From positions 139,364 through 203,363 of the forward strand of contig CAIOPG010000017.1 of NCBI GenBank assembly GCA_903860135.1: a DNA stretch of 64,000 bases, in the 5' to 3' direction. Source of the stretch: Candidatus Omnitrophota bacterium (lineage in GTDB: Bacteria; Omnitrophota; Gorgyraeia; Zapsychrales; Fredricksoniimonadaceae). Below the pieces are notes generated by a model, which worked only from the letters and a program-made list of their open reading frames with translations, was not told where the DNA came from and did no database searches. This document shows, one piece after another, positions 3,344 to 59,098 of the stretch. The translations under genes were made by a program, and so were the position numbers. How positions within the stretch are numbered: the stretch's first letter is position 1; every line of letters starts with the position of its first letter.

Positions 3344-3386
3344 ACCGCGATCCCTTACGCTTTGTTTTTAATTTATAGAATAATGT

Positions 3387-4478: not shown

Positions 4479-4481
4479 CGT

Positions 4482-5855: not shown

Positions 5856-5857
5856 AA

Positions 5858-7339: not shown

Positions 7340-7375
7340 GTCTTCATCCTTTCCATATACCGCCCATAACCACGA

Positions 7376-16966: not shown

Positions 16967-17049
16967 ACCAGAAGTCATACACCTTGGGAAGCGTCAAATC
17001 ACGGGCATGAGGAAATGATCATCGCGGATCCGATGACGCAGGTGTGATC
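16967..17049. repeat. ~83-nt intergenic repeat, copy B (paired with 12907-12989)
   Basis: See copy A. It begins at the stop codon of the 1030-aa modular protein and contains AAGGTGT-ATGACTTCTGGT (an SD plus ATG-ThrSerGly) on the minus strand. Confidence 0.7.
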
Positions 17050-20000
17050 GTCAAGAGGACTGGCTTGAAACCGGCAAACGAAGGCAAAAGGAAATCTTCA
17101 TTACCGACAACTTTTTCATCCGATGCCGCCTGGCTCCGGTCAACCGCCACCTCCATCCCGCTGGCATCAATACCACCGTATTTCTTCTGATCAGCAAGAC
17201 CCTTAGCATCTTTTTTCTGAAGCCTGTACACATGATATTCCCATGGCTGCAACGTCCATGTTCGTTCTTTGACCATATCCCTGAAAGACACTGGCGGCGC
17301 TTCGGGATGAAGAATATCGCTGAATTCCATCTGATCCTTTTCATCCTCGGTAAGATAATCCCACTGAAAATGCTGATTAATATAGGGAATTGTCTTCTCC
17401 GTACCGCTGTGATTCACGACAACAAGGCCAACCTCATAAGAACCGTCCTCATTCTGAATGCGGCGCTGATCAACCAAAACCCCTTCGGGAAGATCACGCT
17501 GATCACCAACCAAAGCCGGCCGCATTGTTCCGTTACACCATAATTTATCTGCCATCAAAGAAAATAAATTCTTATAAAATGATGTGAGTTCAGGGTATTC
17601 CAGCCACGTATCTTCTGCATCGGGTTGATTCAGTGCATCGGGCTTACCGTTGGTCTCGGCATGACGCCCCGTTTCAAACCCCTCATTGATCAGCGTGCCC
17701 CCGGAGAAATAGGCCATCAGCGCCGCATTGGCGGCCTTGGCACGTGCTATAAAACTTTTTAATACGCGCTCACTCAACAAAGCATTAATTTCATCTGGAT
17801 CATCACTAAAATCCTTGTGCAAGACAGCCTCAATCTCAGGGATGTCAGCATTAAGATAAAGATCTTGATCGTTTTCTCTTACATATCCCTGCTCGATCAA
17901 CGACCTCACAATAATGCCTCCCCTCAATGGCGCAGCCTCCGTAACAGCCTGCCAGCTGAAAGCCGTTGTTTCACGTATCTCATCAATGGTCCTTTTCCCA
18001 CGAATATCATCATGATTTTCGAGAAACTTTATAATACCCTGCATGTAAAAATCAGCCCCCTCAGACAACAACGAACCAAACATTCTGGAACTACGACGCA
18101 AAGATACAAAATGCTCCAAAGAAAGATGTTTGGCATAAACAAAATCAATCCCCAGCTTCAAAGCATATTCTTCATTCTCATACATTTCTGCAATAAAAAC
18201 AGAATCCGGATACTTTTTTTTCATTTCTCTAAAAAGATTCCTCCAAAAATCATCATTCATATCGCCATACTTTAATTCCCCCCAACTATTATTGAACCGG
18301 CCTGCCAAAGCCAGATGGAACATGTCAAAACGAATACCTCCACCGTTCGTCAACCGCATAATACGATCAATTAACGCCTCAATATATACCTGAGTTTCCG
18401 GCTTGGAAAAGTCAAAAGCCACCGTGTCCAGCCATGCCGCATAATAAGGATCCTTTTGATGCGCATAAATCCAGGATTTTCCATTTTTATCTTTATGCCA
18501 AAAGAAAAACCTGACAAATTCACTTTCCTGAAGATTCTTCCGAATCCCCCTGAAATAACTGCTCAAATTGGCGATCTCCGCTTCTGGTATTCTGCCTTCT
18601 TCAACCCGTATGAACAGCTCCGGATGTTCCTCCATCAATTTTCCCATGACACCGGCATGATTGGTCACAAGATCAACACACACTTTTATCCCATACTTGG
18701 CCGCACGTTCGACAAGCCTTTTAAAAGCCGCCTCGCCACCCAGGCTTGCCGCCACCGTATAATCATCGAGGCTATACGCGGAGGCCAGGCGCTGCTTTTG
18801 CCCAAAGATCTTAGCTGCCCATCCCTGATAATATCGGCTAAACTTGGATCGCTCCCATATGCCCATGGTCCACAACTCATTGATCCCCTTGTCTGCCAAC
18901 CCTTGAAGGTATTCATCCGTGATTTTGTCAAAACGCTTCGTAGGCCCGGCATGCCACAAATATATAACGGGGGCGTGCGTAAGCTTGACCGGCGCCACTT
19001 CCGCCGCCAGATCAACAACAGCCACGTCGGGAACTGCCGGCAATGGACCTGACACCACCGAAAAAACACCCGGTGTTAACATGCCAAAATCATTTACCCC
19101 GCCGGAAAAATACTTGCGCGGCAAAAGTTCGCCGGACACGGCATCCTTCTCTTCGCGGATGAGATTGACAGCACCTTTCTTATACGCGTCCACATACGTA
19201 TCATAAATCTTGCGCGGTTCCGCCTTGTCGGCGATAGCAACGCCCGCGAGCCTTGCCTTGTCCAGATAAGACCGGCGCCAGGGCGCGGCCCCTTTTTTCT
19301 GACGGTACCATTTGGCCAGGATCAGGGCCTGAAATATCTGCCGTAACCGGGCAAAGCGAGCGCCTTCATTAACCTCCCGCTCGATCACGGGCACAATGAC
19401 CTCGCGCATCACCTGAACAACAGCCTCCTGCCCCGCATTCAGGGCATGACTTCCCTCTGCCTGCGCGCGCGCCAGATAATCCTGTTCAAGCATGACCTTG
19501 AGGCGCGCCTCAACAACCACCCCGCTCAAGCCCTTCTCAACAACCCGCGCCCGCGCCGGAACGATCCACACCTTGTGAAAATCATCGGTCAATGCCCCCA
19601 CATTCACATCACGGTCTGAAACCGCGCGCAACCGTGCCCAAAACACACGGCCACTGGCGCTGTCAGGATGCAATAACGATGCCGTGAACTGTTTAAGGAT
19701 ATAATCCTGGGCCAGGAGATCGCGCCCCAGCTCGGTCATCCCCAGGGTTTTTGTCACGATGCGGTCGGATTCATACGGAGAAAGATTGACCCAGAATTCT
19801 TTTTCAGGAACGGCCAAGCCTGTCAGGAAATACCGCGCCTGCCGCGCAACATTTTCCCGCAAGTCAGCCTCCGGCGTTTGCCCCTTGTCGAGCATGAACA
19901 AAAGCTTGCGCGGCTGTTGCGGGTCGATCCGCAGTCCCTTGACCAGCGCCGGCGTATAGACACCCCCCGTCACAACCAGGGTGCCCGGCAACGGAAGATC

Positions 20001-20111
20001 TCTCAACGCCTGCGCCTCAGCCAAGATCGGTGTCAGTAAAAACACGACCGCCGTCAGTAAAGAACAAACGGCCTTGAAAGGAAATTTATGATGAAATAAA
20101 GGCACCATCAC
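17019..20111 (-). CDS. Secreted modular protein 1: conserved N-cap domain + GH13 alpha-amylase-family catalytic domain + conserved C-tail
   Basis: 1030 aa with a signal peptide (…LTPILAEAQA). The N-domain is shared with three paralogues (blocks WVNLSPYESDRI, GRDLLAQDYILKQFTASL, KVWIVP, LKVMLEQDY, PRKYFSGGV). GH13 conserved regions are present: DLVTNH, GIRFDMFH, IAEMYE, FLENHD. The C-tail is ...GGIDASG...AGFKPVLLTITP. Confidence 0.8.
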   Translation of the reverse strand: MMVPLFHHKFPFKAVCSLLTAVVFLLTPILAEAQALRDLPLPGTLVVTGGVYTPALVKGLRIDPQQPRKLLFMLDKGQTPEADLRENVARQARYFLTGLAVPEKEFWVNLSPYESDRIVTKTLGMTELGRDLLAQDYILKQFTASLLHPDSASGRVFWARLRAVSDRDVNVGALTDDFHKVWIVPARARVVEKGLSGVVVEARLKVMLEQDYLARAQAEGSHALNAGQEAVVQVMREVIVPVIEREVNEGARFARLRQIFQALILAKWYRQKKGAAPWRRSYLDKARLAGVAIADKAEPRKIYDTYVDAYKKGAVNLIREEKDAVSGELLPRKYFSGGVNDFGMLTPGVFSVVSGPLPAVPDVAVVDLAAEVAPVKLTHAPVIYLWHAGPTKRFDKITDEYLQGLADKGINELWTMGIWERSKFSRYYQGWAAKIFGQKQRLASAYSLDDYTVAASLGGEAAFKRLVERAAKYGIKVCVDLVTNHAGVMGKLMEEHPELFIRVEEGRIPEAEIANLSSYFRGIRKNLQESEFVRFFFWHKDKNGKSWIYAHQKDPYYAAWLDTVAFDFSKPETQVYIEALIDRIMRLTNGGGIRFDMFHLALAGRFNNSWGELKYGDMNDDFWRNLFREMKKKYPDSVFIAEMYENEEYALKLGIDFVYAKHLSLEHFVSLRRSSRMFGSLLSEGADFYMQGIIKFLENHDDIRGKRTIDEIRETTAFSWQAVTEAAPLRGGIIVRSLIEQGYVRENDQDLYLNADIPEIEAVLHKDFSDDPDEINALLSERVLKSFIARAKAANAALMAYFSGGTLINEGFETGRHAETNGKPDALNQPDAEDTWLEYPELTSFYKNLFSLMADKLWCNGTMRPALVGDQRDLPEGVLVDQRRIQNEDGSYEVGLVVVNHSGTEKTIPYINQHFQWDYLTEDEKDQMEFSDILHPEAPPVSFRDMVKERTWTLQPWEYHVYRLQKKDAKGLADQKKYGGIDASGMEVAVDRSQAASDEKVVGNEDFLLPSFAGFKPVLLTITPASSDPR

Positions 20112-20150: not shown

Positions 20151-23100
20151 TTATCGCACCAGCGCCGCCACGGACACCGGCACGATCTTCCCGATGCGCG
20201 GCTCAAAACCGCTCACGTCCAACTGCGCCCAAGGCTTGGCCGATACCGGTAACGGCACACCGTGGCTATCACGGCGGATCCTGAAATCCATGGTCGCTGT
20301 ATCAAGGGTGACACCACCGGGCGATGCCGCGGCGTCGGCCGACGTGCCCTCCAACGTATCGCCAGCAAACTTTCCAGTCTTTGGGGCGATCTCGTCAGCA
20401 AACGCCTCGCTGATGGTCGCCACCAGATCCGCCAGCTGGCCCTTGTTGATCAGCGGTAACGTGCCGTTCAATAATCCCGCCACAAGCTCAGGACGGGACA
20501 TATGGCTTTGATACTCAGCAAAAAGCCTGTCCCACAAAGGCCGGTATCTTTCTGTATAATAAACCCTGAAATCCCATAACCCGGTCTTCTTGAGCCTGGA
20601 CACGGTATCTGCATCCAGCTCACTTTCCAATAAATTGAAATTTACCAACGCGCCGAGAAAAGGCATGATCTTCTTTTCTCTCATGTCTTCATCAAGAACA
20701 ACCCGCGTGTAATCGATCTGCGTAGCGTGAAAAATCTTATCCAAACGGCTGGCAAGAGTATCCTGTGTTACAGGCGCCGCAGCCGATGCTTCCGGTATCA
20801 ATTGCCCAACGGCAGCGATCAGGCTTTGTGCCTGCTGAGGGACGGCAAGATAGCCTCCGTCACGTGCCGCATCACTCCTCGATAGAAAGATATAATCCTT
20901 GCCGTCGCTGTGTCGGTAAAGCACCGACAACATCCCCTGGCGCAGGTCAGCCTTGCGCACCCGGCCTTCACCAACCATGGTCGTCAGCAGACGGGCCATT
21001 TTCTGTTCCTGGGGACTGCCCTGGGCCAAAACAGCCAGCGCCAATTGTGCAGCCGGCGACGCCCTGCGCACCGGCTCACGCCGCTCGATCCAGTTGTCCG
21101 GAGCACGATGAGAATCCTTGATCCATTGCTTCAGACGCGACACAACACCCGCAAGATAATCCCTTGTCTGCTGGTAAGACCAATTCGTGCTCAACGAAGT
21201 ACCCGGCACATTATGCTGACTCTTGATGCCCACATCCCCGGATTCACCGTCAACGACATCCGCATAGTTAACCACCGTGGTATTGGCCATGGTGTTCATC
21301 AAGACCTTGTTCATGATCTCCGCGATATTGTCCTCTGTCAACTCCTCCGTAACCCCCAGCTCGCGTAAAATCTGAGCCAGCACCTTTTTACTGTTAGTCG
21401 AAAGGTTGCTGTCCCAAAGCCTTGTCGACGGATTGTCGTGGGGGGCAAGAAAAGCCATTTGGCTGGGCAACAAATTAGCCGGATGGTACGGATCACCGTT
21501 GAGCCGGTTTCTCCAGGAAGGATCCAGCGACATATACTGCAACACACTCATGCCTGGCAAAGGCAACTTGCGGAAGAACGCATCCGTCCGGGGTGTGCCT
21601 TCGCCGAGATTCTCGGCTATAAACACATCGGTCAGATCGACCTCGGGGAAAAGCTTCGCCAATTTGTCAAAGATGAGATACGGATCCAGGCCATCGTGAA
21701 TATCTCTCAAAAAATATCCCTGATCGGACGGCTTGTCCCTGGGGATAACAAAAGGATCCGCATACCCAAAGACATAATCCAGCCGAAACCGCGCCCCGGG
21801 CGACAAACGGAGGGCGTAAACGAACCTTTTAACATAAAAGTTGATCCCTTCTGCCTTGCTCAAATCCGGCGGTACATGGCCAAAGATGTCATTGCGTACG
21901 CCGGTACGCAGCGAGAACGTCCTATTTTCTGTATCATAAATGAAAACATCCGGATTCCCCCAGCAATCCGCGCTGTTAAACCGCGGATATATATTCAAAT
22001 CTTCGATAATCGGGACATGATGCTCTTGCGCAAAAGTATTCAGAGCCTCCGCCTGCTGACGTACAAGGAACTGAAAGAAATGGAAGAACCCAATTTTCTG
22101 TTGGTTCGCTATTTCAAAATCTTTCACACCAGAGGCATTAATATTAGATAGCTCATCCGGCCAGCGCGTCAAGGCCTGCTCAAATACAAGCTTGATCTTT
22201 GTCCAATTTTCATCTCCCAGGATGTTCTGCAATGCACCAAGCTTATCCCAAGATACTTTCAGCTGAACTTCGTTCAACTTGAGGGAATCAGCCATATTCA
22301 GATAGATCAGTTTTTCTGAAATATATTTCCAAATATCAGTAACACCCTCAACCTCGAGTCCGGCATGCTCAACCGAATACTGGTCAACAAGCCCCAGCCA
22401 GCCGTATTGGCTATACGTCTGGCTCAATACCTGAAACAAAGAATACGATCGCAACCAGTCCATACGTATGTCAACGCCGTCAACCGAGATAAGGCCTTCG
22501 GTATTTTCTTTGACGAATGTGTCAAACGCCTGCTGAAAAAGCGCCACCGGCCGACCGTTCGTCGGCCATACCCCGGTATTTTGCGCCTCCAGAAAATTTG
22601 CATACGCCTGACGGGCCAGTTGTTCCTTGTATCCCAGCCGATCAAAAGCAATCCGCAAAGAATGAATATCTTTAGGAACAATGACATCGTGTTGTTCCTG
22701 GGTTATAAACCCTTGCGCGACCAAGTCTTGCGGGCTAAGCAAGTTTCCGTTGAGCCCAAAGAGCCCATTACCATAATATGGATCGCCGTTATTATTCGTC
22801 CCCAGCAACGGTTCGCGTAGCCAGCCGGCACCTGCTTTTTCCAACCCCAGAATGAGGGCTCTCGCCTCCGGCCCAAGATCGCCCCCTCCGTACTCTCGCT
22901 GATCCGTCGATGCTACTGAGGGCAATGACGCAACCGGAACAAAAATCACCGTTCCGGGTACCTGCGCCTTAACGGCCGCCGCCGTCGCCTCGTTCGTCAT
23001 CGCCTTCGCCCCCGGCATCATCCTCGCCACCGATGCCGAAGGTTTTCTTTTTTCGGAGTTATCCGTCTGCGGCGCCTCCGCAAAATCCACCGCCACCGAT

Positions 23101-24254
23101 GCGCTCGCATCAGACCGTTGCGCAACACGCCCCGCAAAATCCTTTTTCTCCTTCTCCGTCGCCGGAGTCACAGCATTTACCGGCACCACTCCGCCCGACA
23201 CGTATTTCCGGGGCACCGACGCGCGACCCTGCGGATCGACCTCGTCTTTGATGTAGTTATAAACCCCGGCCTTGAAAGATGCCAGATACCGGTCATACAG
23301 CTTCTGGCGGATGGCGGGATCATCGACTTTGATCCCGGCGGCCTTGTTGCGGTCGACGTAGATCTTGCCGAGCACGCTGTCGCGCAGGGTTTTCTTGTAC
23401 CATACCGCGAGAATCATGGAATTGTAGATCTGGCGCAGGGTGGCAAAATTCTTGCCACTATTCACTTCCTTCTCGATGGCGGGGATCAGGATTTCGCGCA
23501 TGACCTGCTTGGCGAGCTCATCTTCCGGACGGGGCACAGACCCGTCCCTACCCACGCCGGCAACCTGCGCCGATTTATAATCTGATTCGAGCATGACTTT
23601 CAGGTGCTGTTCGACCACAAAGACCCTGTTGCCCTTCTCGTAGACAACCGCCTTGTCGGGCATGATCCAGACCTTGTTGAAGGTATCCAGCGGCAGGTCA
23701 GTCACCCCGGACTGTTCCTTCGCCTGGCTGTAAACCCTCTGCCAGAACGCCTTGCCCAGGTCATCTTCAGGATAGAATAATGATGCCGACAACTGCTTGA
23801 GGATATAGTCCTGCGCCAGCATATCGCGGCCCATGTCCGTCTGGCCAAGGCCTTCGCCGGTGATGCGATCCTTTTCATACGGCGACAGGTTCACCCACTG
23901 CTCTTTCTCGGGAACAGTTAAAGATGCCATGAAATATTTGACTAATTTCTCGGATTCCTGACGAAACGCATCACTGTCAAACGCAAGGCCGGAATCACCC
24001 TTATCAATGATAAAACTGAACTGAAGTGGCTTCTCAGGATGAACTTCCATGCCGATGGCCAAAGGAGGCACGTACGCCGGGGAAGGATGCACCATGACAC
24101 CCACCGGCGGCAAGCGTAAAGCCGCCAAGCCATCCGCCTGCGCCCAGGCCCTGTTGACAGGCATAAGGGTGTTGACCAGAAAGACAGCGGCTACAAAAGC
24201 CGCCACAGCACAACGCAGCCTAGAATGACGGACACAACAAAGCATCGAGGGCAT
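20151..24254 (-). CDS. Secreted modular protein 2: conserved N-cap domain + GH77 4-alpha-glucanotransferase (amylomaltase-like) domain + conserved C-tail
   Basis: 1367 aa with a signal peptide (…VNRAWAQA) and the same N-domain blocks (WVNLSPYEKDRI, GRDMLAQDYILKQLSASL, KVWIMP, LKVMLESDY, PRKYVSGGV). GH77 signatures are FFHFFQFLVRQQAEALNTFAQEHHVPIIEDL, RLDYVFGY, GMSVLQYMSLD, APHDNPSTRLW. The C-tail is ...GGVTLD...SGFEPRIGKIVPVSVAALV. Confidence 0.8.
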   Translation of the reverse strand: MPSMLCCVRHSRLRCAVAAFVAAVFLVNTLMPVNRAWAQADGLAALRLPPVGVMVHPSPAYVPPLAIGMEVHPEKPLQFSFIIDKGDSGLAFDSDAFRQESEKLVKYFMASLTVPEKEQWVNLSPYEKDRITGEGLGQTDMGRDMLAQDYILKQLSASLFYPEDDLGKAFWQRVYSQAKEQSGVTDLPLDTFNKVWIMPDKAVVYEKGNRVFVVEQHLKVMLESDYKSAQVAGVGRDGSVPRPEDELAKQVMREILIPAIEKEVNSGKNFATLRQIYNSMILAVWYKKTLRDSVLGKIYVDRNKAAGIKVDDPAIRQKLYDRYLASFKAGVYNYIKDEVDPQGRASVPRKYVSGGVVPVNAVTPATEKEKKDFAGRVAQRSDASASVAVDFAEAPQTDNSEKRKPSASVARMMPGAKAMTNEATAAAVKAQVPGTVIFVPVASLPSVASTDQREYGGGDLGPEARALILGLEKAGAGWLREPLLGTNNNGDPYYGNGLFGLNGNLLSPQDLVAQGFITQEQHDVIVPKDIHSLRIAFDRLGYKEQLARQAYANFLEAQNTGVWPTNGRPVALFQQAFDTFVKENTEGLISVDGVDIRMDWLRSYSLFQVLSQTYSQYGWLGLVDQYSVEHAGLEVEGVTDIWKYISEKLIYLNMADSLKLNEVQLKVSWDKLGALQNILGDENWTKIKLVFEQALTRWPDELSNINASGVKDFEIANQQKIGFFHFFQFLVRQQAEALNTFAQEHHVPIIEDLNIYPRFNSADCWGNPDVFIYDTENRTFSLRTGVRNDIFGHVPPDLSKAEGINFYVKRFVYALRLSPGARFRLDYVFGYADPFVIPRDKPSDQGYFLRDIHDGLDPYLIFDKLAKLFPEVDLTDVFIAENLGEGTPRTDAFFRKLPLPGMSVLQYMSLDPSWRNRLNGDPYHPANLLPSQMAFLAPHDNPSTRLWDSNLSTNSKKVLAQILRELGVTEELTEDNIAEIMNKVLMNTMANTTVVNYADVVDGESGDVGIKSQHNVPGTSLSTNWSYQQTRDYLAGVVSRLKQWIKDSHRAPDNWIERREPVRRASPAAQLALAVLAQGSPQEQKMARLLTTMVGEGRVRKADLRQGMLSVLYRHSDGKDYIFLSRSDAARDGGYLAVPQQAQSLIAAVGQLIPEASAAAPVTQDTLASRLDKIFHATQIDYTRVVLDEDMREKKIMPFLGALVNFNLLESELDADTVSRLKKTGLWDFRVYYTERYRPLWDRLFAEYQSHMSRPELVAGLLNGTLPLINKGQLADLVATISEAFADEIAPKTGKFAGDTLEGTSADAAASPGGVTLDTATMDFRIRRDSHGVPLPVSAKPWAQLDVSGFEPRIGKIVPVSVAALVR

Positions 24255-48417: not shown

Positions 48418-48689
48418 ACAACATCCTCCTCTTAGATTTAATGCCTTGCCGTCAAGACCATCTACACGCATCCGGCGGTAAGGTAATGGATACTCTTCTT
48501 CATCAACCGCTAGCCGATGAAGAACTGGTTAATGTGAATTTAAAGAATATAACGCTGATAGGGCATCAAGTCTAGGGTAAAGATAAAAAATTTACCCCCA
48601 TATTTTCGAAGACGGTTGCCTTGACAATAAAACATCATCTGGTAGTCTATGCTCATTGCATTTTATCCTGGCCTTATCAAGGAGCTCCC

Positions 48690-49796: not shown

Positions 49797-49804
49797 GGAG
49801 TGTT

Positions 49805-50140
49805 ATGGAACAGCAGATCATCCCCTTTATTTACCTGTTGTATATTTTGGCCCTGTCGATCTTCCTGGGCTTCGCGCTGATCAGCCGGGTGCCGCCACTG
49901 CTCCATACCCCGCTCATGTCCGAGGCCAATGCGATCTCGGGGATCACCATAGTGGGGGCGCTCATCGCGGCAGGCTCCGGCGATGCCAATGCCCCGCTCA
50001 CGATATTCCTGGGGACTGCGGCCGTGGCCATGGCCATGTTCAACGTGGTCGGGGGCTATCTGGTCACCGAGCGCATGCTCAAAATGTTCAAGGCCAAAGT
50101 TTCCGTTCATCCCGCTGTAACCGCAAAGGCAACATCATGA
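49805..50140 (+). CDS. pntAB: NAD(P) transhydrogenase alpha subunit, part 2 (membrane dII segment)
   Basis: Start ATG at 49805 (MEQQIIPFIYLL...) after AAGGAG; ~110 aa with three TM helices. Confidence 0.8.
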   Translation: MEQQIIPFIYLLYILALSIFLGFALISRVPPLLHTPLMSEANAISGITIVGALIAAGSGDANAPLTIFLGTAAVAMAMFNVVGGYLVTERMLKMFKAKVSVHPAVTAKATS

Positions 50141-51513
50141 ACCACCTTTCCTGGGTCAACTGCGTTTATATCATCAGCTGTATCCTGTTCGCGTTCGGTT
50201 TAAAACTCCTCGGCTCTCCTGAAACCGCGCGCCGCGGCAACTGGATGTCGGCCCTGGGCATGCTGCTCGCCGTGATCGCGACACTCACCGCGCGCGAGAT
50301 CATTTCTTTCCAGTGGATATTGATCGGCGGGGTGATCGGCGCTTCGTTGGGAACGCTCGTGGCCTTGCGCGCCAGCATGACCCAAATGCCTGAAATGGTG
50401 GCCCTCCTGCACGGCTTTGGCGCGCTCGCCAGTGTATTTGTCGACTGGAGCGCGTATCACAACCATACGCCGGACAATGCGGTGGTCATCACGGCGATCT
50501 ACCTGTCGATCCTCATCGGCGGGGTGACTTTTACCGGCAGTCTGGTTGCCTGGGGCAAACTCAGCGAACGCTTGCCCGGAAAGCCGCTCCTTTTTCCCGG
50601 CCAGCAGATGATCAGCATCCTTACAGCCGCGGCCATTGCACTTCTGGCGATCCCTTTTTTCCTGACTCCTGCGGCTTACCCGGTATTCCTGTGGATCCTG
50701 GGGTTGTCACTCATCCTGGGTGTTCTCTTGGTGATTCCCATCGGCGGGGCGGATATGCCGGTGGTGATCTCGGTCCTTAACAGCTATTCCGGGCTTGTGG
50801 CCTGCACCACGGGCTTTGTCATCAACAATGTCCTGTTGATCGTCGTTGGCGCACTCGTCGGGGCCAACGGGATCATCCTCAGTTACATCATGTGCAAGGC
50901 CATGAACCGCTCGCTCAACAATGTGCTTTTCGGCGCCTTTGCCCCGCGTGTCAAGAAAGCCGCCGGCACGGCCAAGGGCGAGGTCAAACCCATCAGTCCC
51001 CAGGATGCTTTCCTTATCCTTGAATCCGCGCGTTCGGTCGTTATTGCCCCTGGTTATGGCATGGCGGTTGCCCAGGCGCAACACGCCGTGCGTGAACTCG
51101 GAGAGCTCCTGGAAAAGAATGGTGCTGATGTGAAATACGCCATTCATCCGGTCGCCGGGCGCATGCCCGGCCACATGAACGTCCTTTTGGCCGAGGCCAA
51201 TGTCCCTTATGATCAGCTCGTTGAAATGGAACACATCAATCCGCTGATGGACAATGTTGATGTCGCCATCGTGATCGGCGCCAATGACACCGTCAACCCG
51301 GCGGCCATCCACGACAAGACATCCCCCATCTACGGCATGCCCATCATTGAAACGTTCCGGGCCAAGACCGTCTTTGTGATCAAACGCTCGATGGCCTCAG
51401 GCTTTGCGGGCATCGAGAATGAATTATTCCTCTATGACAACACCCGCATGATCTTTGGCGACGCCAAAGATGTGGCGCAGAAACTTGTGGCGGAGTTCAA
51501 GGCGGGGAACTGA
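50137..51513 (+). CDS. pntB: NAD(P) transhydrogenase beta subunit
   Basis: 458 aa, a membrane domain plus a C-terminal NADP(H)-binding dIII; 4-nt overlap with pntAB. Confidence 0.9.
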   Translation: MNHLSWVNCVYIISCILFAFGLKLLGSPETARRGNWMSALGMLLAVIATLTAREIISFQWILIGGVIGASLGTLVALRASMTQMPEMVALLHGFGALASVFVDWSAYHNHTPDNAVVITAIYLSILIGGVTFTGSLVAWGKLSERLPGKPLLFPGQQMISILTAAAIALLAIPFFLTPAAYPVFLWILGLSLILGVLLVIPIGGADMPVVISVLNSYSGLVACTTGFVINNVLLIVVGALVGANGIILSYIMCKAMNRSLNNVLFGAFAPRVKKAAGTAKGEVKPISPQDAFLILESARSVVIAPGYGMAVAQAQHAVRELGELLEKNGADVKYAIHPVAGRMPGHMNVLLAEANVPYDQLVEMEHINPLMDNVDVAIVIGANDTVNPAAIHDKTSPIYGMPIIETFRAKTVFVIKRSMASGFAGIENELFLYDNTRMIFGDAKDVAQKLVAEFKAGN

Positions 51514-54500
51514 CCGGCAGGGCCGCAGCAACTCCATTTTGCCCGATCAGCGCGGCAAGATTGGTCACCGGCTGCATATCCATGATCACAGGATCCAGGC
51601 CGGGAATAGACCCGTCAGGCAGCGGACCGCGATAGGCCGGAAATCGGATACGGACATCATCCCCGCCGGTGCGCAACGCGGTATTACGCGGATTAAGGTC
51701 AATACCGCCTTTATCAGGTGACTGTAGCGAACTTTCATTCGAAACCGACCGGGCAGAATAATCCTTTTCTGTCCCCTGGATCAAACCAAGTTCACGTCCC
51801 AGTTCAATGATATGCTCCGCCATATAGATCTTCCGAAGATAATGCCGCTGTGTCGCTGAATGTTCCGGAGAAATCCACACGCTTAGATCATCATAGCCAT
51901 CTTCATCCATCCCAACAAAACCCTGACTCACATAATGCTTACCTAAGGCATAAGCCATATGTGTTATGCCGCCTTCAACCGTTCCAACAATATCGGCCGC
52001 TTCCATTAAATAAAGTATGCCTCGTTCATGCGGCTGTGGCACAGGCGATACCATGACAAAACTCAAGTATTGCTCAGGAATAAAATGTAAGATAGATTTT
52101 TCATCTTCAGAACGGTTAAATCCCAACCACCCTATACGATTCATATTAGGCATAAGAATGACAAAGAATCCCGAATCAATCAACTGTTGAACTTGCTTAG
52201 CACCGTAACGATACCCGTATTCCGACAAACCTTTTGTTTCTAACTCTCCACCAAACAGATTCAAAAATACAACTGGTCTTCGTTCGATATTCTTATCGGT
52301 CAATGTGGCCAAGAGGCTTCTTTTGTAATGAGCCTCAGAACCTGAAACTGTCGTCATATAATGACCATCTACCACCCGGTTGTTACCGGCCCCGTATGAA
52401 ATACCAAGCCGATCCAAAAGATCAAACGCAGGCGCATATTGATTACCACTATTAATTGGGTCCAACACATCATTCCTCACATGGATAACATCGTACTCTT
52501 TGTGTCCATAGGCGTAGGGAGAATGGATATAAATAGCGGGGGGTTGTCTCTTGAGAACATCCTGGAACGCCTGTTCCGCCTTCTGTGAAAGAATTTTTCC
52601 ATCAGCATCATAACGGTGAATAATCATGTCAGATTTCTCAGCGTCAAACAAAGGAGGAAATGTTAGCTGTATTCGCGGATGATTATATATCTCCGTCCGC
52701 TTCGTATAAATGTATATCTCGAGTTCCGGGTTATATTCCAACAGCGCTTGAACGAGTGATCCATTGCGTATGATCTCATCTCCTATACCTTCATCCAAAT
52801 TATGGACAAACAGTACCTTTTTCTTGCCGATCTTAAGAATTGCCTCAACTTTCTTATGAACATCCACCTTCTCTTTTTCACCGACATCCGGTTCTTTGGC
52901 ATCAATCAAAGGGATAAGTTTTTCAAGGTTTTGTCGAAAATCATCTAAAGATATATCCTTATATATGTTATTTCTGATCAGCAAATCCCAAAACCTGTCA
53001 ACCCGTCCATGAACACGTGAACTCATCTCAGCAAAGATCTTCAACTGCTCAAGCGATAGTGACGCCCCATGAAACCCAATCAATCCTCCTAACTGATAAT
53101 AGATAAAGCTATGCGGCGAATGATCCAAATTAAGCAGGATCGTCTTGATTACAGGCCAATATTCAAAGAAACTATCGCCGTAATGCTCCTTTAACCGATT
53201 AAAACCACTGTTCATTAAAAACCCCATTTTGGTCGCATTCGACTCCTTAAAAAGAAGCTTAAAAATGTCTCCTATCTCATCAATAAACATGTCACCAAAA
53301 TCTTTCTTAACTTCAAGTAAGAGCTTATAATATCTGCCAGGACTCTTGCTCGCCGACAGAATCCCAAATTCTTTCAAATCATCCCAATATCGCGGCAATT
53401 GATCACCAAACACATCAACGGCAATCTCCCATATTCCCCAAAAGTCGCGACCCGGATCACTTTCGGCCGCCATGGCCCAATACATAGCTTCCAATTCATC
53501 CAAGATGCGGCGCACGTCTTCACGGGAATGAATTAAATACGGTTTTAATGTTTTTAATGAAGCTAATGCCCACCCAGCACCATTATTACGTTCGCGGGCG
53601 AACCCTATCGAGCTTTGAATCAGCTTGAGCCCCAATTCAGGGAAATACTCAAGGTATTCCTCATGGGAATAACCATCAAACGGCATCCCGCCATTGGTCG
53701 TAAAGAATGGCTCTCCCCATTGGAGTACGGTAGCAACAGTATCAACCACCTCATAACCGTAACGATTTAAAATATCTTCTATCAACTGTTTTTTATCATC
53801 CGGTAGTTCTTTATATAACGCTTGGGCATAAAATTCATTCTTAAAAGCGGTCTCAGTTCTGTTATTAACACCCCGTTTAGCCCGTAACGCCAATATTATT
53901 TCCTCTGCCGTCATAGATACCGGAACGCCTCCCAAGCCATCGATAAAGCGGTACTTTTTCATGGCAGAATCATTTTTCTTCTTTCCATCTTTCCTGAGCG
54001 ATCCTGACTTCTTACCCGCGATAACGGATGCCTGAACCGCAATCTTGGTAGCTCTTGCCGCCTTCGCCGCGACATCCCCCGGCGTTTGTGATTCATCGAT
54101 CCGCCCATACTTCTCCACCACACCACCGGAAAAATATTTGCGCGGGATCACGGTTTGGGAGACATCATCGTAATCTTCTTTGATAAAGTTATAAACGCCC
54201 CGTTTAAACGCCTCCAGGTACTGTTGATAAATCTTCTGGTTGATCTGCTTATCCTGGGTATCAACTCCTGCGGTCCTGTTGTGATCGATGTAAATATCCT
54301 GCAGGACACTACCAGCCACATGGCGCTTGTACCAGGTGGCGAGGATCACGGCGTTGGATATCTGGCGCAGACGCGCAAACGACTTGCCGGTATTGACCTC
54401 CCGCTCGATCTCGGGAATGATAACCTCACGGATAATTTCTTTGGCGATATCGCTCAGCGGCGTCAGATCCTCCGCGCGTGTCTCCCCCAGCCCGTGCCGG

Positions 54501-55213
54501 GTGTGGCCCTGATTGGCCGCCAACGCCAGATAATCATTTTCCAGCATCACCTTATGGTGACTCCCGGTCACAAAGACCGATGTCCCGCTGACATAGACCG
54601 ACGCCCTGTCCGGGATGATCCAGACCTTGTGAAAAGTATCCATCGGGATCTCGTTGGTCCCGTAACGCTGCCGCGTTTTATCCCTCACCCGTTTCCAGAA
54701 CGCACGCCCCAAATCTTTCTCGGGATACATCAGGCTGGCTGTCAATTGCTTGAGAAGATAATCCTGCGCCAAAAGGTCCCGCCCTATTTCGGTTGCGCCA
54801 AACCCCGGCGGAATGATGCGGTCTTTTTCGTAAGGGCTGAGATTAACCCACATCTCATCTTCGGGCACCGTCATGGCCGCAAAGAAATATTTGATCAGGT
54901 GGTTGGATTCATCCCGAAGACTTTCTTCTTTGAGATTATCATCCCCTGGATGCACCATGAAATCAAACCGGAACGGATCTTCAGGATACACGGTCATCCC
55001 GATCATCAGGGCAGGATCATAGGCAGGGGTTAAACCAACCATCGCGCCAGGCGGCGGTAAGCCAAGGAGCGTTCCACCCGCCGGCCCAACCTGTTGCGCC
55101 TGCGCCTGGGATAAACCCAATGGAAGAACCGACTGACCGACAAAGGCGATCAAAACCGCCAAAAGCAGTGTTTTCTTAAGGAAGAAATATTTTTTAAAAT
55201 GAAAATGATGCAT
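51497..55213 (-). CDS. Secreted modular protein 3: conserved N-cap domain + ~500-aa unassigned helical region + GT9-like glycosyltransferase domain + conserved C-tail
   Basis: 1238 aa with a signal peptide (…LSQAQAQQ) and the N-domain blocks (WVNLSPYEKDRI, GRDLLAQDYLLKQLTASL, KVWIIP, KVMLENDY, PRKYFSGGV). The GT9-like features are ...KVLFVHNLDEGIGDEII... and ...MEAADIVGTVEGGITHMAYALGKHYV.... The C-tail is ...GGIDLNP...DPVIMDMQPVTNLAALIGQ. Confidence 0.8.
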   Translation of the reverse strand: MHHFHFKKYFFLKKTLLLAVLIAFVGQSVLPLGLSQAQAQQVGPAGGTLLGLPPPGAMVGLTPAYDPALMIGMTVYPEDPFRFDFMVHPGDDNLKEESLRDESNHLIKYFFAAMTVPEDEMWVNLSPYEKDRIIPPGFGATEIGRDLLAQDYLLKQLTASLMYPEKDLGRAFWKRVRDKTRQRYGTNEIPMDTFHKVWIIPDRASVYVSGTSVFVTGSHHKVMLENDYLALAANQGHTRHGLGETRAEDLTPLSDIAKEIIREVIIPEIEREVNTGKSFARLRQISNAVILATWYKRHVAGSVLQDIYIDHNRTAGVDTQDKQINQKIYQQYLEAFKRGVYNFIKEDYDDVSQTVIPRKYFSGGVVEKYGRIDESQTPGDVAAKAARATKIAVQASVIAGKKSGSLRKDGKKKNDSAMKKYRFIDGLGGVPVSMTAEEIILALRAKRGVNNRTETAFKNEFYAQALYKELPDDKKQLIEDILNRYGYEVVDTVATVLQWGEPFFTTNGGMPFDGYSHEEYLEYFPELGLKLIQSSIGFARERNNGAGWALASLKTLKPYLIHSREDVRRILDELEAMYWAMAAESDPGRDFWGIWEIAVDVFGDQLPRYWDDLKEFGILSASKSPGRYYKLLLEVKKDFGDMFIDEIGDIFKLLFKESNATKMGFLMNSGFNRLKEHYGDSFFEYWPVIKTILLNLDHSPHSFIYYQLGGLIGFHGASLSLEQLKIFAEMSSRVHGRVDRFWDLLIRNNIYKDISLDDFRQNLEKLIPLIDAKEPDVGEKEKVDVHKKVEAILKIGKKKVLFVHNLDEGIGDEIIRNGSLVQALLEYNPELEIYIYTKRTEIYNHPRIQLTFPPLFDAEKSDMIIHRYDADGKILSQKAEQAFQDVLKRQPPAIYIHSPYAYGHKEYDVIHVRNDVLDPINSGNQYAPAFDLLDRLGISYGAGNNRVVDGHYMTTVSGSEAHYKRSLLATLTDKNIERRPVVFLNLFGGELETKGLSEYGYRYGAKQVQQLIDSGFFVILMPNMNRIGWLGFNRSEDEKSILHFIPEQYLSFVMVSPVPQPHERGILYLMEAADIVGTVEGGITHMAYALGKHYVSQGFVGMDEDGYDDLSVWISPEHSATQRHYLRKIYMAEHIIELGRELGLIQGTEKDYSARSVSNESSLQSPDKGGIDLNPRNTALRTGGDDVRIRFPAYRGPLPDGSIPGLDPVIMDMQPVTNLAALIGQNGVAAALPVSSPP

Positions 55214-55215
55214 CG

Positions 55216-57306
55216 CTAACCGCCTCGTGCCGTAACAGGTGCGATGCCCAGAAAGTTGGGCAGATCATTCATGGGCTGAATGTCGATGATAACCGGCGCC
55301 ACCCCGGCTGAGCCCCGATATTTCTCCAGCATCGCCGGGTCAAAATGAAAGAATGTCCCTGCATCAGAAGCATCCACCTGCATGACCTGAGCGACAGGGT
55401 TCAAATCAATACCGCCTGAATCATTTGACGACTTGTCCGCCATCTTCCGATTAATCTTATCCAGTTCACCTGGGACCTTGTTCTTTAAATCTTCAGGTCC
55501 ATCAACCAATACTGTCTGCATACCAACCTTCTGGGCAGGTACTGTATCTTTTTGACTTGCTCCGATCGACACAAAAGCTTCAGCTGGGAAAGGAACTTTC
55601 GCTTGAATCTTCCGATAAAAATCAAGGGCAGGCTTCCCAACCCCCATATTCTCCTGGGTAAATATAAAATCAAAAATCTCCTCAAGCCCAAGCGCCTTTA
55701 AGACACGCGCCACATGAGCGTCGCTGGCATTAGACCCAAGCACAAGATAATACGACTGTTTCAATCCTTTCAATAAAGCAATCATGTCTTGTTCCGGTTT
55801 CAACAAACCTTCCACGTCAATCTCATCCACCTTGGCGTTAAACGCAGAACTGTTCAGGTTGAATGCCCGGACAACCCCGCTTAAAGATTGATTATTATTC
55901 TCATCAAAATAGGCGTTCTTCACTTCTTTTGCTGAATATTCAGCGGCCTTGGAAAGCTTGAGCAAAATCCGATATTTCCGACCCCACACCTTGCTTGAAT
56001 GATAAAGAGTATCCCCCAGATCAAAGATCAGCACTTTTACAGGCATCTTGCTGCGAGGTTCCAGGCTTGAATTGTCTTTAATAGAAGATGGTTTTTTCTC
56101 TTTAGGAATATTATTTACCCTGACACTCATCAAGACTTGCTTGCGCACAGGAAGCCCTGCCGCATCAAACGCATTGACCATACTCATATCACCAGGATAA
56201 ATATTAACACCCCCCGCAAAATACTTCCGGGGGATCGTTGCCTCGGTGGCGGGGTCGTATTCTTCGCGGATAAGGTTATACGCGCCTTTCTTGAATGACG
56301 CGACGTAGCGTGACCATATCTTTGCGGACTCTTTCGGGTCATCGATATTGACACCGGCGACTTTATTCTGGCCGACGTAGAAGCCGAGCGGGGATTGGTG
56401 GATCGCGCCCATGACTTTCTTTTTGTACCAGGCGGCCAGGATCAGGGAGTTGTAGACCTGCCGGAGCTGGGCGAAGTTTTGGCCTTCGTTGACTTCTTTT
56501 TCAAGGACAGGGAGGATGATGGTGCGGATGAGGGCTTGGGCAAGGTCTTCCCCCCGTCCATCCCCTTCCCACGAGGGGGAGGGTGACGTTGGAGACGCTG
56601 TATTATTCTTCGCGGCCAGATAATCGGATTCGAGCATGACCTTCAGGCGGGATTCGACCACGTAGGCGACGGCTTCTTCGGGGCGATGGTTGCCGGCAGG
56701 CTTGGGTTTTTCGTAAACCTTAGCCACAGCTGGAACGATCCAGACTTTATTGAACGTATCAATGGGGATATCGGTTGTCCCGAACTTCGCCTGGGCCTGT
56801 TTGTAGATCTCATCCCAGAACTTCTTGCCCAGGCTATCCTCAGGGTACATCAAACTGGCGGTGATCTGTTTCAACAGATAATCCTGCGCCAGAAGGTCGC
56901 GCCCCATTTCGGTCTGGCCAAAAGCTTCGGGCACAATGCGGTCTTTTTCATACGGGCTGAGATTCACCCAGAGGTCCTTTTCAGGCACCGTGAGCGCGGC
57001 GAGGAAATATTTTATCAGGCGAAGGGCATCATCCCCCGTCCCTTCCCCTTTATCCAGAATAAAATCAAACCGAAAAGGATCCCCCGCATAAACCTTGACG
57101 CCGGTAAGGGTGGTCGGATGAAAAACAGGGCTCAACCCCACCCTGGCTCCCGGCACCGGCAATCCCAACACCTCTTGTGCCGACACCTGCCCCAACGGAA
57201 ATGCCATGACATTCAACAAAAATGCCACCAGCATGACCCAGGGAACAATCCGCTGTCTCAGTGTTTTATTACGCTTTAAAGCCACATGATCTTCCCGATG
57301 GTTCAA
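55216..57306 (-). CDS. Secreted modular protein 4: conserved N-cap domain + HAD-superfamily phosphatase domain + conserved C-tail
   Basis: 696 aa with a signal peptide (…GQVSAQE) and the N-domain blocks (WVNLSPYEKDRI, GRDLLAQDYLLKQITASL, KVWIVP, LKVMLESDY, PRKYFAGGV). HAD motif I is FDLGDTL, with later GKP/D motifs. The C-tail is ...GGIDLNP...APVIIDIQPMNDLPNFLGI. Confidence 0.8.
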   Translation of the reverse strand: MNHREDHVALKRNKTLRQRIVPWVMLVAFLLNVMAFPLGQVSAQEVLGLPVPGARVGLSPVFHPTTLTGVKVYAGDPFRFDFILDKGEGTGDDALRLIKYFLAALTVPEKDLWVNLSPYEKDRIVPEAFGQTEMGRDLLAQDYLLKQITASLMYPEDSLGKKFWDEIYKQAQAKFGTTDIPIDTFNKVWIVPAVAKVYEKPKPAGNHRPEEAVAYVVESRLKVMLESDYLAAKNNTASPTSPSPSWEGDGRGEDLAQALIRTIILPVLEKEVNEGQNFAQLRQVYNSLILAAWYKKKVMGAIHQSPLGFYVGQNKVAGVNIDDPKESAKIWSRYVASFKKGAYNLIREEYDPATEATIPRKYFAGGVNIYPGDMSMVNAFDAAGLPVRKQVLMSVRVNNIPKEKKPSSIKDNSSLEPRSKMPVKVLIFDLGDTLYHSSKVWGRKYRILLKLSKAAEYSAKEVKNAYFDENNNQSLSGVVRAFNLNSSAFNAKVDEIDVEGLLKPEQDMIALLKGLKQSYYLVLGSNASDAHVARVLKALGLEEIFDFIFTQENMGVGKPALDFYRKIQAKVPFPAEAFVSIGASQKDTVPAQKVGMQTVLVDGPEDLKNKVPGELDKINRKMADKSSNDSGGIDLNPVAQVMQVDASDAGTFFHFDPAMLEKYRGSAGVAPVIIDIQPMNDLPNFLGIAPVTARGG

Positions 57307-59055: not shown

Positions 59056-59098
59056 GTGCCTATCCTCCCGGACAACGCTTGTCCGCCTTGATCTATCT

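What the first reader, a model, noticed from the sequence alone, without database searches (positions are those of the whole stretch)
51497..57306. Second tandem pair of the same capped-protein family, carrying a GT9-like glycosyltransferase (plus ~500 aa unknown) and a HAD phosphatase
Proteins of 1238 aa and 696 aa, separated by 2 nt, carry the same signal peptide plus N-cap and the same C-tail as the 17-24 kb pair. Their cores are a large unassigned helical region followed by a GT9/heptosyltransferase-like domain (…MEAADIVGTVEGGITHMAYALG…), and a HAD hydrolase (DxD motif FDLGDTL). The caps are therefore attached to four mechanistically different enzymes: a hydrolase, a transferase, a glycosyltransferase and a phosphatase. 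That argues the caps have a function independent of catalysis, such as export, targeting, tethering or oligomerisation. The four genes form a paralogous set specific to this genome region. Protein 3's ~500-aa middle segment (approx. aa 400-900) also lacks any family I recognise.
Basis: partly seen in the sequence, partly recalled or inferred. Interest (0 to 1): 0.85.

Follow-up and report, generated by a model that had tools for sequence, protein, structure and literature searches.

The report
Capped modular exported proteins of Omnitrophota
The two genes belong to a large, undescribed protein family of the ultra-small Omnitrophota bacteria in which the same signal peptide, a ~320-residue N-terminal domain of unknown fold and a ~60-residue C-terminal domain bracket hundreds of unrelated enzymes, so the two ends look like a shared address or handling label, not part of the catalysis.

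Summary
ORFs 51497-55213(-) (1238 aa) and 55216-57306(-) (696 aa) lie 2 nt apart. They share an N-terminal domain (N-cap) and a C-terminal tail (C-tail) with the 17-24 kb pair. HMMs built without window sequences give N-cap E 1e-105 to 1e-156 and C-tail E 3e-25, 7e-14, 7e-10 and a weak 2e-4.

The four genes are not specific to this region. The N-cap has more than 1000 relatives and at least 586 loci in species-representative genomes, almost all Omnitrophota, often in tandem. It is always N-terminal behind a signal-peptide-like leader, and 75 of 82 complete members end in the C-tail.

Cargo in 95 relatives spans about 90 Pfam families, mostly cofactor-dependent enzymes. Neither cap matches Pfam, NCBIfam or PDB by sequence, and the N-cap model matches no solved fold.

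Best reading: cargo-independent export, sorting or anchoring modules. Delivery into host cells is an open possibility.

The parts
51497..55213 (-). p3: capped protein, 1238 aa. Order: signal peptide, N-cap, Lys-rich linker, orphan helical region, GT9-like domain, C-tail.
   Evidence: ORF. An identical protein is on public contigs of up to 426 kb.
55100..55213 (-). p3 signal-peptide-like leader (aa 1-38; MHHFHFKKYFFLKK / LLLAVLIAFVG / ...SQAQA|Q)
   Evidence: Hydrophobicity and charge pattern. The same pattern occurs in 79 of 88 family ORFs, and 83 of 88 have a net-positive n-region. SignalP was not available.
54116..55075 (-). p3 N-cap (aa 47-366), ending ...IPRKYFSGG
   Evidence: HMM built without window sequences, E 1.6e-156. 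No Pfam hit even at E<=10.
53963..53974 (-). p3 junction motif D-S-A-M (aa 414-417), 48 aa after the N-cap
   Evidence: D-x-A-M lies within 120 aa after the N-cap in 51 of 99 family proteins, against about 7% expected; P 4e-33.
52874..53959 (-). p3 orphan all-helical region (aa ~419-780)
   Evidence: Its only relative among 1.84 billion representatives is the syntenic orthologue P0122. No Pfam hit. The AF2 model is all-helical but pLDDT is 35-65. GC is 0.417 against 0.531 for the window.
51779..52873 (-). p3 GT9-like GT-B domain (aa ~781-1145; motifs HNLDEGIGDEIIR, FGGELETKG, TVEGGITHMAYALG)
51536..51715 (-). p3 C-tail (aa 1167-1226; GGIDLNPRNTALRT...GLDPVIMDMQPVTNLAALIG)
   Evidence: C-tail HMM built without window sequences, E 7.4e-14.
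55216..57306 (-). p4: capped protein, 696 aa. Order: signal peptide, N-cap, HAD-superfamily domain, C-tail.
   Evidence: ORF. Closest relative is the 1208-aa member in L002: N-cap 70% identical, HAD cargo, near-identical C-tail.
56203..57183 (-). p4 N-cap (aa 42-368)
55477..56040 (-). p4 HAD-superfamily domain (aa 423-610), motif I FDLGDTL
   Evidence: Pfam HAD_2 E 9e-16 and Hydrolase E 3.5e-11, both above cut-off. No NCBIfam equivalog reaches its cut-off. Motif I is non-canonical.
55240..55419 (-). p4 C-tail (aa 630-689; GGIDLNPVAQVMQV...FHFDPAMLEKYRGSAGVAPVIIDIQPMNDLPNFLG)
   Evidence: C-tail HMM E 3.3e-25.
20151..24254 (-). p2: capped paralogue, 1367 aa, GH77 4-alpha-glucanotransferase cargo. 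N-cap aa 43-356; type-B C-tail aa 1312-1361.
17019..20111 (-). p1: capped paralogue, 1030 aa, GH13 alpha-amylase cargo. N-cap aa 33-340; degenerate C-tail aa 978-1027.
   Evidence: Likely orthologue is the 986-aa member in L049.

Best explanation
p3 and p4 are two members of a large, previously undescribed Omnitrophota family of modular proteins.

**Architecture.** Sec-type signal peptide, then a ~320-aa N-terminal domain of unrecognised fold, then an exchangeable cargo of 0.3 to more than 3 kaa, then a ~60-aa C-terminal domain.

**Proposed working.** The caps are cargo-independent handling modules.
1. The leader takes the protein across the inner membrane. This step is inferred from sequence features.
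2. The N-cap and C-tail give every member the same downstream fate. That could be recognition by a common envelope or secretion component, retention on the cell surface, or both. This step is inferred from their universality and strong conservation.
3. The cargo supplies the activity. In p3 it is an orphan helical region plus a divergent GT9-like GT-B domain. In p4 it is a HAD-superfamily hydrolase.
4. The cargo is bracketed by near-invariant Gly-Gly motifs (...RKYFSGG | cargo | GGIDL...) and often by D-x-A-M motifs. These may be processing or docking sites. This step is speculative.

**Evolution.** New members arise by swapping cargo between conserved ends. The evidence is mosaic GC, unrelated cargo in tandem arrays and different cargo at a syntenic position.
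For: - **Homology of the caps.**
- **Family size and taxon.** More than 1025 protein clusters. At least 586 loci in species-representative genomes, almost all labelled Omnitrophota, with the 79 loci read coming from about 43 assemblies.
- **Fixed order.** The N-cap is always N-terminal. The C-tail sits at the extreme C-terminus of 75 of 82 complete members, and otherwise occurs only on truncated or split ORFs.
- **Leader.** It is signal-peptide-like in 79 of 88 members, with a net-positive n-region in 83 of 88.
- **Cargo diversity.** 64 plus 31 Pfam families at E<=1e-5 in 95 cargos. Tandem arrays carry unrelated cargo: L002 HAD/unknown/AvrB_AvrC; L049 unknown/amylase/SNF2; L029 includes PPDK-type and metallo-beta-lactamase cargo.
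- **Cap conservation.** The caps are far more conserved than the cargo: 26 invariant N-cap columns over 124 sequences.
- **Co-inheritance of the two caps.** C-tail subtype B tracks N-cap similarity in 6 of 8 cases, against a 12% background.
- **GC mosaic.** Caps have GC3 0.55-0.74. Cargo has GC3 0.40-0.47 in p3, p4 and p1.
- **Syntenic swap.** A capped gene sits beside pntAB in L057 with different cargo.
- **Junction motif.** D-x-A-M enrichment has P 4e-33 on the N-cap side and 1e-11 on the C-tail side.
- **No prior description.** Nothing in Pfam, NCBIfam, PDB sequences or the papers searched.
Against: - **No localisation data.** SignalP or DeepTMHMM could not be run.
- **Cofactor-dependent cargo.** Many family cargos need cytoplasmic cofactors: ATP, NAD(P), SAM, Fe-S clusters, acetyl-CoA or nucleotide sugars. 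The GT9-like domain of p3 is one of them. Such enzymes would be idle in the periplasm or the medium. This argues either for delivery into another cell or against export.
- **No linked partner gene.** No secretion or sorting gene is linked to the family in 79 loci. The window copies sit among housekeeping genes: rbfA/truB, sufSU, pntAB and the dcw cluster.
- **No docking evidence.** AF2 did not dock the C-tail on the N-cap. However, that alignment held no C-tail homologues, so the result is uninformative.
- **Possible active site.** The many invariant polar residues in the N-cap could mark an active site instead of a recognition surface.
Confidence: 0.55

Rival explanations
1. **Effector-delivery reading (more specific).** The caps are a delivery device. 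After export, the N-cap and/or C-tail bind and cross the envelope of a host or prey cell. The cargo acts in the foreign cytoplasm, for example by mobilising glycogen with the GH13 and GH77 cargo, dephosphorylating metabolites, or glycosylating targets with host nucleotide sugars. Cargo may be released at the Gly-Gly or D-x-A-M junctions. The layout resembles MARTX toxins, where conserved arms flank mosaic effectors.
For: - Family cargo is dominated by enzymes that need cytoplasmic cofactors. It also includes classic effector domains: Fic, AvrB_AvrC, GNAT, and HEAT/TPR/Arm repeats.
- The cargo repertoire overlaps that reported for Omnitrophota giant proteins implicated in predation (10.1101/2023.11.21.568195, read).
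- GT9-like domains occur both in capped proteins and in giant proteins.
- Omnitrophota are reported to be ultra-small with host-dependent traits (PMC10066038 abstract).
- Conserved motifs sit at both cargo boundaries.
Against: - No pore-forming, receptor-binding or protease domain was recognised. The Foldseek hits to alpha-pore-forming toxins have E>0.6 and TM<0.1, which is noise.
- There are no adjacent immunity genes.
- Housekeeping-type cargo (Glu and Ala dehydrogenases, starch synthase) is unusual for effectors.
- There is no experimental evidence of transfer.
Confidence: 0.25
2. **Not exported.** The N-terminal helix is an uncleaved membrane anchor, or is not used. The caps work inside the cell as scaffolding, oligomerisation or compartment-targeting modules that gather many metabolic enzymes at one site.
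For: - The cofactor-dependent cargo fits a cytoplasmic location.
- The family has no linked secretion genes.
- The window copies are embedded in housekeeping operons.
- A 2026 preprint predicts many Omnitrophota giant proteins to be membrane-anchored with cytoplasmic bulk (10.64898/2026.06.07.730766).
Against: - The n-region is strongly basic and the residues after the helix are uncharged, so the positive-inside rule places the body outside.
- The h-region is short, is followed by Pro/Gly and a small-x-small site, and looks like a cleavable signal peptide.
- There is no second TM segment.
Confidence: 0.12
3. **The N-cap is an enzyme or intramolecular chaperone.** It could be a self-processing domain or propeptide that acts on the linker and C-tail, with the C-tail as its substrate or regulator.
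For: - The N-cap has many invariant polar residues: N115, T132, Y143, K146, Q147, E271, N273, R282, Q283 and Y310 in p4 numbering.
- The D-x-A-M motif recurs after the N-cap, before the C-tail and inside the C-tail as FxxDPAM.
- Invariant Gly-Gly motifs sit at both junctions.
Against: - There is no sequence or fold similarity to any protease, chaperone or other enzyme.
- There is no conserved His or Cys.
Confidence: 0.08

Closest known systems
Type IX secretion cargo with a conserved C-terminal domain (CTD)
   Same: Sec signal peptide, diverse enzymatic cargo and a small conserved C-terminal domain that is independent of catalysis.
   Different: No match to any NCBIfam or Pfam family, T9SS CTD models included. 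The tail is about 60 aa. The family also has a large conserved N-terminal domain, which T9SS cargo lacks. The taxon is Omnitrophota, not Bacteroidota.
MARTX toxins (conserved N- and C-terminal arms flanking mosaic effector domains)
   Same: Conserved regions at both ends bracket a variable, exchangeable set of enzymatic domains. Boundary motifs could be processing sites.
   Different: No RTX repeats, no cysteine protease domain and no T1SS-type signal were detected. The leader is Sec-type. Each protein usually carries one or a few cargo domains. There is no sequence or fold relationship.
Polymorphic toxin/effector systems (Rhs, CdiA, LXG, DUF4157-tagged CIS cargo)
   Same: A conserved trafficking domain is fused to highly variable cargo. 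Genes occur in tandem arrays, and compositional mosaicism suggests cassette exchange.
   Different: The variable part is internal, not C-terminal. No adjacent immunity genes were seen. Much of the cargo is metabolic enzymes, not toxins. The caps are unrelated to known trafficking domains.
SLH-domain or other cell-envelope anchor fusions to secreted glycosidases
   Same: An N-terminal non-catalytic module shared by exported amylases and other enzymes fits the window's GH13 and GH77 members.
   Different: No SLH, LysM or OmpA-like hit. The fold is unrecognised. Family cargo extends far beyond extracellular polymer hydrolases.
GT9 heptosyltransferases (WaaC, WaaF; Pfam PF01075)
   Same: The p3 domain at aa ~781-1145 has the GT-B fold closest to GT9 structures. 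It has counterparts of the GT9 Gly-Asp loop, Lys loop and ...GG.xH.A motif.
   Different: p3 itself does not reach any Pfam threshold. The D(S/T)GxxH motif reads VEGGxxH. The domain sits in a signal-peptide protein. Donor and acceptor are unknown.
Omnitrophota giant proteins ('Archaeovorins'; West-Roberts et al. 2023 preprint)
   Same: Same phylum and an overlapping domain repertoire (HEAT, TPR, HATPase_c, radical SAM, PPDK_N, HAD). GT9-like domains are shared.
   Different: The GT9-domain relatives above 2,000 aa in the set tested (to 7,778 aa) lack the caps. The paper describes giant-protein N-terminal regions as lacking identifiable domains and does not describe this N-cap/C-tail pair.

Membership tests
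Capped family defined here (N-cap + C-tail) | N-terminal ~320-aa domain matching an N-cap HMM built from other genomes | tested here: met
   p3 1.6e-156, p4 7.4e-136, p2 1.5e-145, p1 2.1e-105, each over nearly the full HMM length.
Capped family defined here (N-cap + C-tail) | ~60-aa GGIDL...PVI.I.P...FLG domain at the extreme C-terminus | tested here: met
   p4 3.3e-25, p3 7.4e-14, p2 7.2e-10. p1 reaches only 2.3e-4 and is degenerate.
Sec (SPase I) signal peptide | Basic n-region, 10-17-residue hydrophobic h-region, small-x-small cleavage site, no lipobox Cys, no twin-Arg motif | tested here: inconclusive
   The features are present by inspection and hydropathy in all four window proteins and in 79 of 88 family members. 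No dedicated predictor was available, and cleavage is not shown.
Glycosyltransferase family 9 (PF01075) | Significant match of the protein itself to the Pfam model | tested here: not met
   p3 and its isolated domain give no hit even at E<=10.
Glycosyltransferase family 9 (PF01075) | Homology by transitive or profile evidence | tested here: met
   7 of 18 relatives hit PF01075; P0125 scores 34.5 bits against a cut-off of 22. The profile's only PDB hit is WaaF 1psw, E 0.002.
Glycosyltransferase family 9 (PF01075) | GT-B fold closest to solved GT9 structures | tested here: met
Glycosyltransferase family 9 (PF01075) | Glycosyl (heptosyl) transfer from a nucleotide sugar | not testable with these tools
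   Needs biochemistry. The motif TVEGGxxH replaces TNDSGxxH.
HAD superfamily (PF13419/PF00702) | Match above the Pfam gathering score | tested here: met
   HAD_2 58.9 bits against 23.8; Hydrolase 44.3 bits against 26.4.
HAD phosphatases | Motif I DxDx(T/V), with Asp+2 as general acid/base | tested here: not met
   p4 has FDLGDTL and its L002 orthologue has FDLADTL, so Asp sits at +3, not +2. Another capped HAD (L069) is canonical, FDVDGTL. No NCBIfam equivalog reaches its cut-off.
T9SS C-terminal sorting domain; PEP-CTERM/LPXTG-type sorting signals | Match to the curated CTD models, or a C-terminal TM helix plus basic tail | tested here: not met
   No NCBIfam or Pfam hit for any C-tail. No TM-like segment outside the leader.
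MARTX / RTX toxins | RTX or A/B/C repeats, a cysteine protease domain, a T1SS C-terminal signal | tested here: not met
   No such Pfam or NCBIfam hits in the four proteins.
Polymorphic toxin systems | Variable C-terminal toxin followed by a cognate immunity gene | tested here: not met
   The variable part is internal. p4 is followed directly by p3, and p3 by convergent pntB. No recurrent small downstream gene was found in 79 loci.

The most novel reading that the evidence does not exclude
The N-cap and C-tail define a previously unrecognised, phylum-specific protein sorting and delivery pathway. In this reading they tag the effector repertoire of host-dependent Omnitrophota nanobacteria: at least nine cofactor-dependent enzymes in one MAG and more than a thousand across the phylum. 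The tagged proteins would be transferred into host or prey cells, with the Gly-Gly and D-x-A-M junctions serving as release sites.
Probability: 0.25. Interest if true: 0.9.

Novelty: new variant of a known kind. Interest (0 to 1): 0.72.

Why it matters
Omnitrophota are abundant, ultra-small and uncultured. They are thought to depend on hosts, but how they act on other cells is unknown.

A recognisable two-ended tag gives a simple sequence rule for listing what is probably the phylum's exported or delivered proteome. The tag sits on at least nine genes in one MAG (nine counted) and on more than 1000 protein clusters in public data.

It also supplies two new domain families to model, and testable boundary motifs. 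It explains why so many 'cytoplasmic-type' enzymes in these genomes carry signal peptides.

Practically, the conserved N-cap is a repeat that fragments assemblies. Many database entries for the family are partial genes that end at a contig edge.

Tried and rejected
- **Direct Pfam/NCBIfam scans of p3 and its segments** found nothing even at E<=10. A first attempt failed on a frame error.
- **Word-index search with the p3 core** found only p3 itself and one orthologue.
- **Word-index searches with the N-cap and C-tail** returned mostly short, partial proteins (<=558 aa and <=119 aa). They were therefore useless for a cargo census. I used six-frame ORFs from 79 genome loci instead.
- **Mixed alignment of fragments for AF2** (N-cap rows, C-tail rows and GT rows, A5) was mis-aligned by MAFFT and discarded. 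N-cap/C-tail docking could therefore not be tested with a proper alignment.
- **First AF2 run** gave low confidence for the HAD domain and C-tail, because unrelated tails were aligned there.
- **Profile searches against PDB sequences** found nothing for the N-cap and only noise (E>=0.77) for the C-tail.
- **Search for a conserved partner gene next to family members** found none.
- **Rfam scan of the window** found nothing.
- **Literature searches** found no description of the family.
- **Recent local tandem duplication** was rejected as the origin, because each paralogue has closer relatives in other genomes.


Full report

Yes. The window holds ORFs 51497..55213(-) (p3, 1238 aa) and 55216..57306(-) (p4, 696 aa), separated by two bases. 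It also holds 17019..20111(-) (p1, 1030 aa) and 20151..24254(-) (p2, 1367 aa).

- BLASTP among the four gives 41-53% identity over the first 330-450 residues, E 1e-72 to 1e-105. tblastn finds no fifth copy in the window.
- An N-cap HMM built only from sequences of other genomes matches all four over nearly its full length, E 1.6e-156 to 2.1e-105.
- A C-tail HMM built only from other genomes matches the extreme C-terminus of p4 (3.3e-25), p3 (7.4e-14) and p2 (7.2e-10). It matches p1 only weakly (2.3e-4, 9.7 bits). These E-values are for a four-sequence search.
- Each protein begins with a basic stretch, a hydrophobic stretch and a small-x-small site, and has no other TM-like segment.

**2. The cargo of the two genes**

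*p4.* It matches Pfam HAD_2 and Hydrolase above threshold at aa 423-610. No NCBIfam equivalog reaches its cut-off. Motif I reads FDLGDTL, with FDLADTL in the closest relative. The nucleophile Asp is present but the general acid/base Asp+2 is missing. 'HAD hydrolase' is therefore safe and 'phosphatase' is not.

*p3.* It has no Pfam or NCBIfam hit, whole or in pieces. An exhaustive HMMER search of the core against 1.84 billion representatives splits it in two.
- Residues ~401-780 have one relative only. This is the 77%-identical orthologue P0122, which also lies next to pntB.
- Residues ~780-1096 have 169 relatives.
  - Seven of 18 of these relatives hit Pfam Glyco_transf_9, one above the gathering score.
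  - A profile of them finds only E. coli WaaF in the PDB sequences, E 0.002, aligned over the nucleotide-sugar motif.
- An AlphaFold model of the core is confident for aa 780-1145 (pLDDT about 90).
- The helical region is modelled as all-alpha with low confidence and stays an orphan.

**3. What the caps are**

*Family size and layout.*
- The N-cap has more than 1025 relatives at 50-65% identity. Nearly all named ones come from Omnitrophota MAGs.
- In the 79 loci read, 99 further ORFs carry the N-cap. It always sits at the N-terminus, in proteins of 800 to more than 3700 aa.
- Fourteen of the 79 loci hold two to four family genes, usually in tandem.
- One MAG (MBPbin6) has nine copies on four contigs.

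*Leader.* The stretch before the N-cap is signal-peptide-like in 79 of 88 cases. It is itself conserved (...FLxNTFGPxPxAQ).

*C-tail.* Its consensus is GGIDLt..nm.Lq....g.gikF..DPAml.qlqnApGf.PVIinIqPm..l..FLG.
- It ends 75 of 82 complete members. Elsewhere in these loci it occurs only on truncated or split ORFs.
- A second subtype (GVPLPV...IDGLVPVI) includes p2 and tracks N-cap similarity.

*No known relatives.*
- Neither cap matches Pfam, NCBIfam or PDB sequences.
- The N-cap is modelled with pLDDT 75-97 as three beta-hairpins plus long helices.

**4. Cargo across the family**

The 95 cargo regions match 64 plus 31 Pfam families at E<=1e-5. Examples by type:
- *Phosphotransfer and kinases:* PPDK-type and alpha-glucan water dikinase modules, histidine phosphatase, HATPase_c, uridine kinase.
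- *Group transferases:* methyltransferases, GNAT, PRTase-CE.
- *Redox and cofactor enzymes:* Glu and Ala dehydrogenases, radical SAM, B12-binding domains.
- *Nucleic-acid enzymes:* SNF2, DEAD and ResIII helicases.
- *Effector-type and repeat domains:* Fic, AvrB_AvrC, YkuD, HEAT/TPR/Arm repeats.
- *Carbohydrate-active and hydrolytic:* GH26, GH13, starch synthase GT5, metallo-beta-lactamase, HAD.

Carbohydrate-active cargo is a minority.

The GT9-like domain recurs as cargo. Thirteen of its 149 relatives carry a cap. It also occurs in uncapped proteins of up to 7778 aa.

Tandem neighbours carry unrelated cargo. A capped gene sits beside pntAB in another genome (L057) with different cargo.

In the window the caps have GC3 0.55-0.74. 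The cargo of p3, p4 and p1 has GC3 0.40-0.47.

Each window paralogue's N-cap is closer to members in other genomes (52-70%) than to its window siblings (43-53%). The family is therefore old, and cargo appears to be exchanged between conserved ends.

**5. New detail: boundary motifs**

- The N-cap ends in near-invariant ...PRKYFSGG. The C-tail starts with invariant GG(I/V)D.
- A D-x-A-M motif lies within 120 aa after the N-cap in 51 of 99 members (expected about 7%, P 4e-33).
- The same motif lies within 40 aa before the C-tail in 16 of 75 members (expected 2.3%, P 1e-11).
- It recurs inside the C-tail as DPAM.
- p3 has NDSAMK at aa 413-418 (D-S-A-M at 414-417). p4 and p2 have variants.
- These could be processing or docking sites. 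That is speculation.

**6. How it most likely works**

*What is shown.* A fixed architecture; phylum-wide distribution; caps independent of cargo type; a signal-peptide-like leader; mosaic evolution.

*What is inferred.* Sec export, followed by a common fate imposed by the caps: sorting, anchoring or secretion (confidence about 0.55).

*The main difficulty.* Much of the family cargo needs ATP, NAD(P), SAM, Fe-S clusters, acetyl-CoA or nucleotide sugars. Two readings follow.
- The proteins act inside another cell (about 0.25). This fits the host-dependent lifestyle proposed for Omnitrophota (PMC10066038) and the overlap with giant-protein domains (10.1101/2023.11.21.568195).
- The leader is not an export signal and the caps act intracellularly (about 0.12).

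An enzymatic or chaperone N-cap is a further possibility (about 0.08).

For the four window genes alone, extracytoplasmic alpha-glucan processing would also fit: amylase, 4-alpha-glucanotransferase and a hydrolase. The GT9-like domain is the exception.

*Context.* No partner gene is linked. The window copies lie among housekeeping genes: rbfA/truB, sufSU, pntAB and the dcw cluster.

**7. Comparison with known systems and novelty**

The logic of conserved trafficking modules plus variable cargo resembles T9SS CTD cargo, MARTX toxins, polymorphic toxins and SLH-anchored enzymes. Every membership test against those families fails, and neither cap has a detectable relative.

I found no description in the papers searched. 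That library is incomplete.

I rate it a new variant of a known kind: modular exported proteins with shared handling domains. The domains are new and the pathway is unknown.

Noticed in passing
window 54155-55033 (+) and 56686-57279 (+); also 24 of 79 related loci: Long antisense 'shadow' ORFs (292 and 197 aa) lie opposite the N-cap coding regions. They are conserved across loci: 29 ORFs in 24 loci cluster together. Most likely this is a by-product of the strongly conserved, GC3-rich N-cap and not a gene.
   Followed up: partly
window 51779-53959 vs 54098-55099 and 51500-51715; likewise in p4 and p1: Sharp compositional mosaic inside single genes. Caps have GC 0.53-0.64 and cargo 0.42-0.46, against 0.531 for the window. 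This suggests cargo cassettes of different origin or age from the caps.
   Followed up: partly
p3 aa 414-417 (window ~53963-53974); p4 aa ~372-375 and 655-660; family-wide in loci L002-L080: A D-x-A-M motif is strongly enriched at both cargo boundaries and also occurs inside the C-tail. Near-invariant Gly-Gly motifs bracket the cargo. The function is unknown.
   Followed up: partly
p2, aa 896-971 (window ~21342-21569): The N-cap HMM (positions 10-78) reports a second, partial match inside the GH77 region of p2. It could be a stray beta-hairpin resemblance or a remnant. Its significance was not assessed.
   Followed up: no
L031 (507-aa + 259-aa ORFs) and L067 (1006-aa + 277-aa ORFs): Family genes appear split. 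An N-cap ORF without a C-tail is followed by a separate ORF that carries only the C-tail. Possible causes are frameshifts, sequencing errors or pseudogenes.
   Followed up: no
database records: Many family entries are 'partial' proteins ending at contig edges, so the conserved N-cap probably breaks assemblies. A few carriers are labelled Planctomycetales, Elulimicrobium, Heimdallarchaeota, Pacearchaeota or Bathyarchaeia. These are probably mis-binned or mislabelled, but a wider distribution was not excluded.
   Followed up: no
window 997-9073 (-): A complete stretch of the dcw cluster is present, in transcription order: ftsI-type PBP, murE/murF-type ligases, mraY, murD, ftsW. The organism therefore makes peptidoglycan. 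Other housekeeping genes nearby include H+-pyrophosphatase (46012-48471), NhaB (43360-44802), pntAB (48621-51513) and sufS/sufU (57386-59346).
   Followed up: partly
window 51497-51513: The 3' ends of p3 (-) and pntB (+) overlap convergently by 17 bases. The same p3-pntB adjacency is kept in the related contig L001.
   Followed up: partly
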